This document shows, piece by piece, positions 9,001-12,000 of a DNA stretch of 17,758 bases. The stretch lies in IMG/VR virus record IMGVR_UViG_2657245634_000007, positions 1 through 17,758 of that record. One strand, written 5' to 3'. This DNA comes from a virus. Its lineage: Duplodnaviria; Heunggongvirae; Uroviricota; Caudoviricetes. Made by a program: the position numbers. How positions within the stretch are numbered: position 1 is the first letter of the stretch; each line of letters begins with the position of its first letter.

Positions 9001-12000
9001 TTGAAATCCTTCTGGATGAAATTATTAACGAAATGAATACTCATGGCATGCAATCCGAAACAGATATTAAGTAAAAGGGACCACATGACCGTTATCGAGC
9101 ATATCCAGGAAAATCCAGATTGCAGTAGAGAAGATATATCCCTCGCACTTGGAAGAAGCGCAACTTCTATCAGTAATGAATTATCACGGTTATTGTGGAA
9201 TGGGTTAATAGTACGAACTGGAGAAAAAAACAAAATGATTCTGTACTGCGTAAACAATCTGCCGTTTGGATACAGCAATCCCCTAAGTGTTATGTTCAAC
9301 CAGTGATAGTGATGTTCCGACAGGAGAGAGCAGAGAAAGGGGAATCAGCATGAAATTTTCCAAATTTTCTGAGTTGGTGAATCGTATTTTGTCCAACAAC
9401 CACAGCCATCGTCGCGATATGGATGTAACGATCGTTGTTCATTCGCCTGGCAGCATTGGTTCAACACCCTCAGTTGAAGTTCAGTCAATTCACGCTGGTT
9501 TTGATTGGGATTCCGGGAAAGTGCTGATTTTCCCAGCACAGCCACTGACCACTCTAACACCAGAACAGATTACTGATATTACTGATAGTGTGCGCAAAGG
9601 TCAGTCCTGGCACGCATATCAGGAATACAAGAAGCATAAAGAGCAGTTGGAAAAATTATCGATTGAACTTGATGCCGCAAAACAGCGCATTGCAGAGCTG
9701 GAGGGTAATTTCACGGCGCTGGCAGCGGAGAATGCGGGGCTAAAGGCGATATGTGATGACCGTCGCAGGTTCATCATGAATGGGGTGCAGATGGGTTATA
9801 TCAAGGTGCCAGCAGCGGAAACAGATCCAGACCTTGAGACAATTCGCATTGCTATATCACCACAAAAGCCCATTCCAGCCACCGATGCTTTCCTGGCTGA
9901 AGTACGGGCGCAGGGCGTGGAGATGTTTGCGGAGTGTGCATACACGCTTGAACATCATGATCACGCAGTAGCCTTCGCCGCTGAGCTTCGCAAAGGAGGC
10001 AACCAGTGAGCAAGATTGACTATCAAGAACTGCGCGAGGCGGCGGAACAGGCAACGCAAGATGAATGGGTAGCATATATTTTGCCGGGTCATAACGGCAT
10101 TTATCCTGCGCGCACGTCTGAGGGTAGGCATTGCGGATACTTTATTGACTGGCCTGGCGTCTGTCAGGGGCGGGAGAGCATCAACATGAGCATCAGAACC
10201 TACGCAGTGAATTGCAATGACGCATGGCTAAACACCGAAGGTGATGACATCTCCGGCTCATACGTTAAGTACAAAGACCATCAGGAAGTGGTTGCCGCTC
10301 TTGAGGCCAAGTGCGCGGCGCTGGCAGCGGAGAATGCGGGAATAAAGTCTGCAATTCCAGAATCACGGGATATTGAAGATGACAATGACAATATGGATGA
10401 CGTATCTCTCGCGGAAGACTTCGGGTTCAATCATGCAATAGAACGGATGAGGAGACAGATACCTGAAACGCCAACCACTGATGCTTTCCTGGCTGAAGTC
10501 CGGGCGCAGGGGGTGGATGCTGCTATAGAAGCTGCAAAAAATCTGGTGGCCCAAGAATATGAGTATAAGGATTTCAAAGCGGCGCAGAGTGATTGCTGTA
10601 TGTACCCTGGTTCAGACCTGGTAGGGAAGGTTGAAATGACTGAGTGGTTAGTTGACTTTGCTGCCCAGCTTCGCAAAGGAGGCAACCAGTGAGCGAAATT
10701 AATTACCAGGCACTGCGTGAGGTGGCGGAACGTGCAATTCCAGCAATGGAACGCCTGTTAATGTTGCCAGCTGATGATGACTTGTTAAGTGAACAGGAAC
10801 TTAAAGATTACGGTGTGGATATTGATGCGCTCAACGCCTTCAAATTTCTGACCGGACCAGAAACCGTGCTGGCACTGCTGGATGAACGGGAAAGAAACCT
10901 GCAATACATCAAAAGCCGCGATCAGGAGAACGAGGATATTGCGCTAACGGTAGGGAAGCTGCGCGTTGAGCTTGAAGCAGAAAAACAGCGGGCAAAAGTT
11001 CTATTTATGGAAAATGCTCGGCTTAAGTCAGGCATAGCCGGTCTGATACACCTCGGTATTCGATATGCAGATGTTGAGGTCATGAAAATTGCTGGAGATG
11101 CCCAGCTTTCTACCCCATGCACTGACAGCATCATAAACAGCATTGCAACAGGCATTCGCATCAAAGGAGAGTGATATGGCGTTAACACACCACGAACTCT
11201 GTCAGATTGCGTACAAGTTCCTTAAGCGCAACGGGTTCAAGGTTTGCTTTCATGACCGCTTTGTTGCTGTAACCAGTACCGGAGAACAGCCAGATGCTAT
11301 GGGATTCAGAAATTCAGCATCATGCCTGATAGAGGCGAAGTGTTCTCGTGCTGACTTGTTGGCAGATAGAAAAAAGCGTTTCCGTAAAAATCCCTCACTT
11401 GGCATGGGCGACTGGCGATTCTTTATTAGTGAGCCGGAAATTATTTCAGTTGAGGATTTACCTCCCGGCTGGGGATTACTTCACGTTGTTAACGGAAGAG
11501 TACGGAAAGTACATGGATGGCCCAGGGGTAATTGCTGTTGGGGTAATCCTGACGATAAGCCATTTACTGGGAATAAGCAGGTTGAATGCGATTACATGTT
11601 ATCTGCATTAAGGCGCATGGAGTTGAGAGGGCACCTTAATGAAATATATGACGGTGTGATTGTTAATAAGAAAGAAGGAAACGCGGCATGATCACTATTA
11701 CCAAAGGGCGACTGCTGACAATCAAGCAGTGGCGCGAAACATACGGACCGGGTAGCAACGTTGTGCTTCCAGCAGAAGAAGCGGAAGAGCTGGCACGGAT
11801 TGCGCTGGCATCACTGGCAGCAGAGCCGGTGGCAAAGATTATAGCTCATTACCCATTAGGAGTTGACGCAGGCAAACAAAAATTCGTACAGGCCATTAGA
11901 GAGCTTCCTGACTTTGGCGGATATCTATTTGCCGCCCCTCCAGCGCCGATAGTGCCGGAAGAAATGTATTGGCAGGATGCGCCAGTTGAAGGCAGCAGCA

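What the first reader, a model, noticed from the sequence alone, without database searches (positions are those of the whole stretch)
9350..11174. Tandem array of three mosaic ead/Ea22-like paralogs joined by an identical 28-bp stop/SD/start junction
The junction agcttcgcaaaggaggcaaccagtgagc occurs at 9984-10011 and again at 10667-10694. It encodes the C-terminal 'LRKGGNQ' of one gene, the SD for the next, and the overlapping GTG start. Genes 1 and 2 also share near-identical internal segments (gcgctggcagcggagaatgcggg; gatgctttcctggctgaagt.cgggcgcaggg), while N-terminal or C-terminal modules differ. This points to module shuffling by homologous recombination at conserved linkers.
Basis: seen in the sequence. 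Interest (0 to 1): 0.45.

Follow-up and report, generated by a model that had tools for sequence, protein, structure and literature searches.

The report
Shuffled Ea22-like prophage gene cassettes
Three neighbouring early genes of an E. coli lambda-like prophage are built from interchangeable blocks joined by short identical DNA stretches, and sister prophages show exchanges exactly at those stretches; this is a clear example of a known kind of phage mosaicism, not a new system.

Summary
The 28-bp string is exact at 9984-10011 and 10667-10694, with none expected by chance. It encodes ...LRKGGNQ-stop, an AAGGAGG Shine-Dalgarno and an overlapping GTGA start for the next gene.

g2 and g3 are Pfam Ead_Ea22 members, and g3 resembles lambda Ea22. 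g1 is not a formal member: it has a different head and shares only the coiled-coil and C-terminal blocks with g2.

The recombination reading is supported by natural recombinants. Near-identical prophages at the same yecE site carry either a g1/g2 hybrid gene, with the crossover inside a 25-nt identical core, or g1 joined directly to g3, with the crossover inside the 28-mer. In-silico crossovers of the window reproduce both exactly: 246/246 aa and 1142/1142 nt.

The junction is bipartite. Its right 17-20 nt is the ribosome-binding and start region that travels with Ea22-type N-termini, whatever lies upstream. Its left ~11 nt belongs to the LRKGGNQ tail.

Across phage contigs the 28-mer joins 24 left-flank types to 25 right-flank types. 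Gene number varies from 1 to 3 between strains.

This matches the classic boundary-sequence model of lambdoid mosaicism. The proteins' function remains inferred from lambda Ea22.

The parts
9350..10009 (+). g1: 219-aa protein with its own beta-rich head (aa 1 to about 85, phrog_6026), a long central helix, and the constant peptides ALAAENAGLK, PATDAFLAEVRAQGV and FAAELRKGGNQ. It is related to Ea22-like proteins but falls below the Pfam threshold.
   Evidence: (exact sequence = P0001, 307 contigs, no Pfam domain)
10006..10692 (+). g2: 228-aa Ead/Ea22-like protein with a GTG start. It is flanked on both sides by the 28-mer, so it behaves as an excisable cassette.
   Evidence: PF13935, E 1.1e-27; absent in L210 and L214; split into 61 + 168 aa by a 2-nt indel in L003-type arrays
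10689..11174 (+). g3: 161-aa Ead/Ea22-like protein with a GTG start, the closest of the three to lambda Ea22. It has the same N-terminus, the same coiled-coil start and the same ...GIRIKGE* end, but a different, shorter C-terminal part.
   Evidence: PF13935, E 4.2e-31; 54% identity over aa 1-101, E 8e-28
9984..10011 (+). Junction copy 1: codons for LRKGGNQ, the TGA stop, the AAGGAGG Shine-Dalgarno and the overlapping GTG start of g2.
10667..10694 (+). Junction copy 2: identical 28-mer between g2 and g3. The crossover site in L210 and L214 lies within these 28 nt.
9967..10054 (+). 88-nt homeologous repeat (81% identical to 10650-10737) around junction 1. It spans the conserved F-A-x-x-LRKGGNQ tail and the conserved N-terminus xS-I-YQ-LRE-AE of the next gene.
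10650..10737 (+). Second copy of the 88-nt homeologous repeat, around junction 2.
9714..9738 (+). D2 island core in g1: 25 nt exact, CGGCGCTGGCAGCGGAGAATGCGGG, coding for ALAAENAG. It contains the crossover site that gives the 246-aa g1/g2 hybrid gene.
10316..10340 (+). D2 island core in g2, the second copy of the 25-nt exact run.
9875..9921 (+). D3 island in g1: 47 nt, 91% identical to 10471-10517, with a 20-nt exact core at 9884-9903. It codes for P-TDAFLAEVRAQGV and is the boundary between the variable middle and C-terminal blocks.
   Evidence: (59 alignment starts, 55 ends)
10471..10517 (+). D3 island in g2, the second copy.
9304..9353 (+). Remnant of the last ~47 nt of a DUF4752 gene that is present in sister prophages. 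It carries the Shine-Dalgarno (AAAGGGG) and ATG of g1. The 259-nt DUF4752 body is missing at 9304.
11151..11178 (+). End of g3: ...GGCATTCGCATCAAAGGAGAGTGA, coding GIRIKGE*. The KGE codons form the Shine-Dalgarno (AAGGAG) for the ATG at 11176 of the next ORF. These 24 nt are identical to the end of lambda ea22.
   Evidence: the K/RGE motif is called 'significance unknown' in PMC7093339

Best explanation
This is the variable accessory-gene segment of the early leftward operon of an E. coli lambdoid prophage inserted at yecE. It lies downstream of the cI-like repressor gene and upstream of xis and int.

It holds three co-transcribed, translationally coupled genes for Ea22-type proteins. Each protein has a variable head, a central coiled coil and a variable tail. 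The genes are assembled from interchangeable blocks separated by short constant sequences.

The 28-bp junction is two overlapping functional elements. Its right 17-20 nt (GGAGGCAACCAGTGAGC) is the ribosome-binding site, spacer and GTG start that belong to the Ea22-type N-terminus. It contains a built-in TGA that terminates whatever gene lies upstream. Its left ~11 nt encodes the end of the conserved ...A-x-LRKGGNQ tail.

These constant stretches are kept nearly invariant at the nucleotide level. They therefore provide 20-28 nt of perfect identity, with 50-90 nt homeologous shoulders, between otherwise unalignable alleles. Homologous recombination at them, within an array or between co-resident phages, deletes, inserts or swaps blocks in frame.

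Shown here: the anatomy; the combinatorial flanks; two natural recombinant classes whose crossovers fall inside the exact cores; and variable gene number.

Inferred: translational coupling; the enzyme responsible (a phage Rad52-like recombinase or RecA); and the protein function. By homology of g3 to lambda Ea22 the function is probably a pro-lysogenic modulator of the lysis-lysogeny decision that acts as a coiled-coil oligomer.
For: The exact 28-mer occurs twice, with none expected by chance. The array lies in a prophage early-left operon that ends in xis and int at yecE.

PF13935 matches g2 and g3. g3 matches lambda Ea22 at E 8e-28 and shares its GTG start and its final 24 nt.

The L004/L002 hybrid gene switches from g1 identity to g2 identity inside the 25-nt core. 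In-silico crossovers of the window reproduce P0079 (246/246 aa) and L210 (1142/1142 nt).

The 28-mer is present in at least 120 viral contigs and joins 24 by 25 flank classes in 60 combinations. High-identity alignment end-points cluster at the islands.

In a sample anchored on the downstream gene there are 122 sites. 84 have the exact 28-mer, about 10 contexts differ by one base, and about 12 contexts with unrelated upstream genes still end in (A)AGGAGGCAACCAGTGAGC; one variant changes GTG to ATG.

Among g1-head proteins, 3 middle-block types and 9 tail types occur in 12 combinations, including a four-gamete quartet.

Joint frequencies in 5,426 complete genomes are 5 (g1|g2), 282 (g2|g3), 18 (g1|g3) and 177 (D2 hybrid).

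The exact cores of 25 and 28 nt lie in or just above the published minimal pairing length for Red-beta (23-27 bp) and below that for RecA (31-34 bp) (PMC3945230).

The array contains no Rfam family, no RNA structure beyond shuffles, and no excess of promoter or terminator matches. The AF2 model of g1 has a confident long helix at 87-147 between weaker head and tail regions.
Against: The direction of each event is not resolved: it could be deletion from a three-gene array or insertion into a shorter one.

Conservation of the islands can be explained by protein and translation constraints alone, so nothing shows they are maintained for recombination.

The neighbouring DUF4752 indel has only about 1 nt of microhomology, so illegitimate events also shape this region.

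No recombinase was recognised among the window ORFs scanned.

Protein function rests only on homology of g3's first ~100 residues to lambda Ea22. g1 fails the Pfam test, and the structure models are of low confidence (pLDDT 58 and 48).

Translational coupling is inferred from sequence only.
Confidence: 0.78

Rival explanations
1. The mosaic is made by random illegitimate recombination followed by selection for functional, in-frame products (the Hendrix/Juhala model). The islands are conserved only because the peptides and the ribosome-binding site are needed, and breakpoints merely appear to coincide with them.
For: The DUF4752 indel at 9304 has about 1 nt of microhomology. The right part of the junction is conserved as a translation start whatever lies upstream. 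L132, from another Escherichia species, keeps 23 nt of the junction while both flanks have diverged.
Against: Two independent recombinant classes switch parental identity inside exact 25-nt and 28-nt cores, with no extra or missing bases, and are reproduced exactly by in-silico homologous crossovers. Illegitimate joins would rarely fall in register within the only identical stretches of two otherwise unalignable genes.
Confidence: 0.12
2. The three genes are ordinary paralogs from in-situ tandem duplication and divergence. The identical junctions are retained by purifying selection or by local gene conversion within this genome.
For: All three match phrog_368. g2 and g3 both cover the full PF13935 profile. 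The repeats are direct and in register.
Against: g2 versus g3 is only 26% identical (E 9e-5) and g1 versus g3 scores E 6e-4. Yet each gene is 95-100% identical to alleles that sit alone or with other partners in other phages and plasmids. Identity falls from 100% to unalignable within about 12 nt of the junction, which is not a gradual divergence pattern. The same 28-mer is nearly invariant across many unrelated contexts, so its identity is not a within-genome phenomenon.
Confidence: 0.05
3. The conserved islands are a cis-acting nucleic-acid element, such as an RNA structure, an sRNA target, or a site for a dedicated recombinase or diversity-generating system, rather than coding or translation signals.
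For: Nucleotide-level invariance of the 28-mer includes synonymous positions, while the adjacent F and A codons vary freely at third positions.
Against: No Rfam family matches in the array. Folding energies are not different from shuffles, with z from -1.1 to +0.3. No inverted repeats were found. No reverse transcriptase, invertase or defence-system protein was found nearby. The invariant positions are explained by the Shine-Dalgarno, the spacer and the start codon, and a GTG-to-ATG variant exists.
Confidence: 0.03

Closest known systems
[quoted passage not shown]
   Same: g3 shares the GTG start, the N-terminus VSEIN-QALRE-AE, the coiled-coil segment LLDERERN-QYIK-RDQENEDIALTVGKLRVELE and the terminal GIRIKGE*, with the same final 24 nt. 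g2 and g3 pass the Pfam threshold. The genomic position is equivalent: the early leftward operon upstream of xis and int. The tripartite plan of variable N-terminus, coiled coil and variable C-terminal domain matches the published description (PMC10834534, PMC8614690).
   Different: Lambda has one ea22 gene; here there are three in tandem. g3 lacks the lambda C-terminal domain that was solved by NMR, and no PDB sequence match was found. g1 has an unrelated head and no Pfam match. g1 and g2 end in LRKGGNQ rather than K/RGE. No exo, orf60a, orf61 or orf63 block was seen in this window.
Boundary (linker) sequence model of lambdoid mosaicism (Susskind and Botstein 1978; Clark et al. 2001 on HK620, as summarised in PMC3233612)
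   Same: Short conserved sequences at gene and domain boundaries flank non-homologous modules, and exchange occurs at them. Here this is seen directly at three islands.
   Different: Two of the islands (D2 and D3) lie inside genes, at domain boundaries, and encode conserved peptides. The gene-boundary island is a ribosome-binding and start region fused to a conserved C-terminal peptide. Not all boundaries in the region use it.
Relaxed or homeologous recombination by phage Rad52-like recombinases (PMC2327257, PMC3945230)
   Same: High-identity patches are flanked by 'shoulders' of intermediate identity (80-91% over 47-88 nt), with exact cores of 20-28 nt. This is comparable with the Red-beta minimal pairing length of 23-27 bp.
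   Different: No recombinase gene was identified in the window, so the enzyme is not known here. The shoulders are much shorter than the ~200-bp median reported.
The 933W ea22 / L0065 split (PMC8614690)
   Same: An Ea22 domain is encoded either fused or as a separate downstream gene. Here g2 is intact (228 aa), while L003-type arrays have it as 61 + 168 aa with an ATGA overlap.
   Different: Here the split is caused by a 2-nt TG indel, not by an insertion.

Membership tests
Pfam PF13935 Ead_Ea22 | Whole-protein score above the curated gathering threshold (27 bits) | tested here: met
   g2 scores 97.7 bits (profile 1-138 of 139) and g3 scores 108.8 bits (profile 1-139 of 139).
Pfam PF13935 Ead_Ea22 | The same threshold applied to g1 | tested here: not met
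   g1 has no PF13935 hit at E <= 0.1, only weak coiled-coil families. Its exact sequence carries no precomputed Pfam domain and is named 'hypothetical protein'. It does match phrog_368 (E 1.4e-59) over aa 17-219 and g2 at E 3e-13.
Lambda-type Ea22 | N-terminus V/M-S-x-I-x-x-Q-x-L-R-E-x-A-E, translated from a GTG preceded by a Shine-Dalgarno | tested here: met
   g2 begins VSKIDYQELREAAEQA and g3 begins VSEINYQALREVAERA, compared with lambda VSEINSQALREAAEQA. g1 lacks this motif.
Lambda-type Ea22 | Central coiled-coil region (tetrameric in lambda) | tested here: inconclusive
   The g1 model has a long helix at 87-147 with block pLDDT 65-87, and weak coiled-coil Pfam hits. g3 shares lambda's coiled-coil sequence. 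The oligomeric state cannot be tested with these tools.
Lambda-type Ea22 | Common C-terminal K/RGE motif (PMC7093339) | tested here: met
   g3 ends in IKGE*. g1 and g2 end in KGGNQ* and do not meet this feature.
Lambda-type Ea22 | Lambda C-terminal domain (the dimeric fold solved by NMR) | tested here: not met
   No PDB chain matched g1, g2 or g3 at E <= 0.1. The g3-to-lambda alignment stops at residue 101, apart from the last 7 residues.
Lambda-type Ea22 | Pro-lysogenic effect on the lysis-lysogeny decision | not testable with these tools
   Known only from deletion phenotypes in lambda and Stx phages (PMC7093339, PMC10834534).
Boundary-sequence-mediated module exchange | The same short sequence flanked by different, non-homologous modules in different genomes | tested here: met
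   24 left-flank by 25 right-flank classes in 60 combinations. 42 distinct upstream contexts in the anchored sample.
Boundary-sequence-mediated module exchange | Parental identity switches inside the conserved sequence in natural recombinants | tested here: met
   D2 core: alignment A1. 28-mer: L210 and L214. In-silico products are identical to the natural sequences.
Known anti-phage defence systems (PADLOC) | Match to a defence-system protein model | tested here: not met
   No hits for g1, g2, g3 or the two downstream ORFs.

The most novel reading that the evidence does not exclude
The constant islands may be more than by-products of protein and translation constraints. In this reading they are maintained because they make Ea22-type genes a plug-and-play cassette system. 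A gene such as g2, bounded by identical start and stop junctions, could be inserted, excised or stacked in register. Heads and tails could be swapped on a common coiled-coil scaffold, possibly forming mixed oligomers between paralogs that share the ALAAENAG helix. Prophages could thereby rapidly re-target a host or rival-phage process in an arms race.
Probability: 0.12. Interest if true: 0.55.

Novelty: new member of a known kind. Interest (0 to 1): 0.3.

Why it matters
The debate over whether phage mosaics arise at conserved boundary sequences or by random illegitimate joins is old. This array is a clean natural example, resolved to the base, in which parent and both single-step products coexist in present-day E. 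coli prophages.

It also offers a simple explanation for two conserved Ea22 C-terminal motifs, K/RGE and KGGNQ. Both double as the Shine-Dalgarno of the next gene, so part of their conservation may be at the nucleotide level.

On the practical side, it flags inconsistent annotation. g1 is called 'hypothetical' while its hybrid is called Ea22-like, and g3 is started at GTG in some genomes and at an internal ATG in others.

It does not reveal a new mechanism or a new function.

Tried and rejected
- PDB sequence searches for g1, g2 and g3 found nothing meaningful.
- The AlphaFold models were too weak: g1 with a 21-sequence alignment had pLDDT 58, and g2 as a single sequence had pLDDT 48. I therefore did not run fold searches, because the matches would be meaningless.
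- PADLOC gave no defence-system match for the array.
- The Rfam scan and the folding of the junction and islands gave no RNA-element signal.
- The promoter and terminator scan showed nothing above chance inside the array.
- A codon-degenerate junction pattern scanned over one genome per species returned only 6 hits, of which one (an Escherichia sp.) was relevant. It gave a host-range statement but too few copies for a synonymous-site test.
- The first junction sample was selected on the exact 28-mer and so could not measure its conservation. I replaced it with a sample anchored on the downstream gene.
- I considered an assembly artefact from collapsed or expanded repeats. I rejected it because at least five independent assemblies carry the identical three-gene array.
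- I considered that g1's head might be a fused DUF4752. I rejected it because g1 has no Pfam hit to DUF4752, and DUF4752 is a separate upstream gene in relatives, read in another frame.
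Full report
**1. The observation.** The 28-nt string AGCTTCGCAAAGGAGGCAACCAGTGAGC occurs exactly twice, at 9984-10011 and 10667-10694 on the + strand. None of 200 dinucleotide-preserving shuffles gave any match, even with 3 mismatches allowed. The exact run is 28 nt, no longer. It is embedded in an 88-nt direct repeat at 81% identity.

Three ORFs abut through it: g1 9350-10009 (219 aa, ATG), g2 10006-10692 (228 aa, GTG) and g3 10689-11174 (161 aa, GTG). g1 and g2 end in LRKGGNQ-TGA. AAGGAGG lies 6 nt before each GTG, and stop and start overlap as GTGA.

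D2 is 56 nt at 80% identity, with an exact 25-nt core at 9714-9738 and 10316-10340. D3 is 47 nt at 91% identity, with an exact 20-nt core at 9884-9903 and 10480-10499.

**2. Context.** The window is an E. coli lambdoid prophage inserted at yecE, next to yecN, cmoA and cmoB. The + strand carries a LexA/S24-type repressor, HTH proteins, several unknown ORFs, the array, DUF551 and DUF4222 proteins, an excisionase and an integrase. Inside the array there is no Rfam family, no RNA structure beyond shuffles (z from -1.1 to +0.3), no inverted repeat, and no promoter or terminator excess. It therefore reads as co-transcribed, translationally coupled coding sequence.

**3. What the proteins are.** g2 and g3 pass the Pfam Ead_Ea22 threshold (E 1e-27 and 4e-31). 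g1 does not, although all three match phrog_368.

g3 is the lambda-Ea22-like member. It is 54% identical to lambda Ea22 over residues 1-101 (E 8e-28), has the same GTG start and the same ...GIRIKGE* end with an identical final 24 nt, but has a different C-terminal part.

g1 and g2 share only their C-terminal two-thirds, and there only as islands (E 3e-13). g2 versus g3 and g1 versus g3 are weak (E 9e-5 and 6e-4).

An alignment of g1-head homologs shows one head, then the constant peptides ...ALAAENAG-K......P-TDAFLAEVRAQGV... and ...FAA-LRKGGNQ. These separate two variable blocks. Three middle types and nine tail types occur in twelve combinations, including a four-gamete quartet.

AF2 gave only one confident element, a long helix at 87-147 in g1. 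That is consistent with the published tripartite, coiled-coil Ea22 plan (PMC10834534, PMC8614690). There were no PDB sequence matches and no PADLOC matches.

**4. The junction is bipartite.** I anchored on Ea22-type N-termini rather than on the 28-mer. Genes with unrelated upstream neighbours are still preceded by (A)AGGAGGCAACCAGTGAGC. The left ~11 nt (AGCTTCGCAAA) appears only when the upstream gene has the LRKGGNQ tail.

Of 122 anchored sites in 42 contexts, 84 carry the exact 28-mer. About ten contexts differ by one base, mostly synonymous, and one changes GTG to ATG. Upstream of the 28-mer, conservation collapses within ~12 nt, and third positions of the F and A codons have a majority frequency of about 0.47. 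Downstream, ~45 nt encoding the N-terminus stay conserved in two allelic forms.

A different Escherichia species (L132) keeps 23 nt of the junction with diverged flanks. Among species-representative genomes the element is essentially confined to Escherichia.

The parsimonious reading is a translation-initiation region with a built-in upstream stop, fused to a conserved C-terminal peptide.

**5. Evidence for recombination at the islands.**

(a) The 28-mer is present in at least 120 viral contigs and joins 24 left-flank classes to 25 right-flank classes in 60 combinations.

(b) End-points of alignments at 90% identity or more between the window and 125 loci pile up at 9730-9749, 9870-9925, 9970-10059, 10290-10359, 10450-10519, 10650-10729, 10850-10989 and 11150-11189. 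Coverage collapses between them.

(c) Prophages 98-99% identical to the window at the same att site (L004, L002) carry a single 246-aa gene. It equals g1 up to the 25-nt D2 core and g2 after it. An in-silico crossover of the window there gives a protein 246/246 identical to P0079, seen on 751 contigs.

(d) L210 and L214 have g1 followed directly by g3 through one 28-mer, with a g1-type left flank and a g3-type right flank. The in-silico product matches L210 at 1142/1142 nt.

(e) The window-type three-gene array itself recurs in independent assemblies. L209 and L216 are 100% identical to the window over 3.2 kb.

(f) Among 5,426 complete E. coli genomes, the diagnostic joints occur in 5 (g1|g2), 282 (g2|g3), 18 (g1|g3) and 177 (D2 hybrid) genomes. 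The halves of each probe occur separately in about 450-1,170 genomes, including ~95-kb plasmids.

(g) Array size in the fetched loci ranges from 1 to 3 genes.

**6. Mechanistic reading and its limits.** The exact cores (25 and 28 nt) with 47-88-nt shoulders at 80-91% identity resemble the 'shoulders' described for lambdoid mosaics (PMC2327257). They sit in or just above the minimal pairing length reported for Red-beta (23-27 bp) and below that for RecA (31-34 bp) (PMC3945230). Exchange by a phage recombinase, possibly supplied by a co-resident phage, is plausible but not shown, and no recombinase was recognised among the ORFs scanned.

The direction of the events (deletion versus insertion) is unresolved. 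Not all boundaries use homology: the 259-nt DUF4752 indel at 9304 has only about 1 nt of microhomology. Nothing shows that the islands are selected for recombination as opposed to protein or translation function.

**7. Comparison and verdict.** This is the boundary-sequence model of lambdoid mosaicism (Susskind and Botstein; Clark et al., via PMC3233612) acting on the Ea22 family. That family's multidomain, mosaic and occasionally split nature is already noted (PMC7093339, PMC8614690).

It is a new, unusually well-resolved member of a known kind, of modest interest.

Noticed in passing
window 4090-4177 (-) and 4202-4278 (-): Rfam matches above gathering score to C4 antisense RNA (RF01695, 82 bits) and isrK Hfq-binding RNA (RF01394, 62 bits). 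They lie inside the 5' part of the long minus-strand ORF 3481-4335, which is Rha-family in relatives. This suggests a P1/P7-type antisense-controlled antirepressor leader and possibly an over-extended ORF call.
   Followed up: no
window 9304 (compare L004 10035-10293): Sister prophages carry a DUF4752 gene here. The window lacks its 259-nt body but keeps its last ~47 nt, including the Shine-Dalgarno and ATG of g1. The joint has only about 1 nt of microhomology, so it is an illegitimate event next to the homology-driven ones.
   Followed up: yes
window ~10131-10132 and 10186-10189: g2 is a single 228-aa ORF here. In L003-type arrays a 2-nt TG indel (GGCATTGTGCGG versus GGCATTGCGG) shifts the frame, giving a 61-aa ORF that stops at a TGA overlapping an ATG (ATGA) and a 168-aa ORF. 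RefSeq annotates both as separate Ea22-like genes.
   Followed up: partly
window 11151-11178; L126 (lambda) 1048-1071: The conserved Ea22 C-terminal 'K/RGE' motif, described as of unknown significance in PMC7093339, is encoded by AAAGGAGAG. In the window this is the Shine-Dalgarno for the ATG at 11176 of the next ORF. Lambda keeps the same 24 nt although no ORF follows immediately. Part of the motif's conservation may therefore be at the nucleotide level.
   Followed up: partly
window 10689 versus 10746; L001 5051, L003 4381, L213 4897: Start-codon annotation of g3 is inconsistent between genomes. Some use the GTG (161 aa) and others an internal ATG (142 aa). The Pfam profile alignment from position 1, lambda's GTG start, and a natural GTG-to-ATG variant all favour the GTG.
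   Followed up: partly
L001 2944-4000 (E. coli O111:H21 15A), equivalent to window 9318-9695: In the only complete RefSeq genome with a contiguous 100% match to window 9696-12600, an IS903B element replaces window 9318-9695 and truncates g1.
   Followed up: yes
window 11176-11691: A 171-aa ORF (phrog_9263 and phrog_631, no Pfam match) follows g3. Its equivalent is annotated as a short 'frameshifted' pseudogene in several RefSeq relatives, including the 100%-identical L001. It is replaced by an 87-aa plus 170-aa gene pair in L004 and L208.
   Followed up: no
window 9298-9306: The upstream 87-aa winged-helix ORF (9043-9306) also ends in AACCAGTGA, the same 9 nt that end g1 and g2. In L004 this ORF reads on for ~10 more codons into the DUF4752 start.
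   Followed up: no
E. coli plasmids of ~85-100 kb (e.g. L005, H72-H74, H96-H97): The same Ea22-like blocks, including g1-head and g2-type genes in a different order and with DUF4752 between them, occur on phage-plasmid-sized replicons: 744 of 4,697 matching places are on plasmids. The module pool is therefore shared between lambdoid prophages and plasmid prophages.
   Followed up: partly
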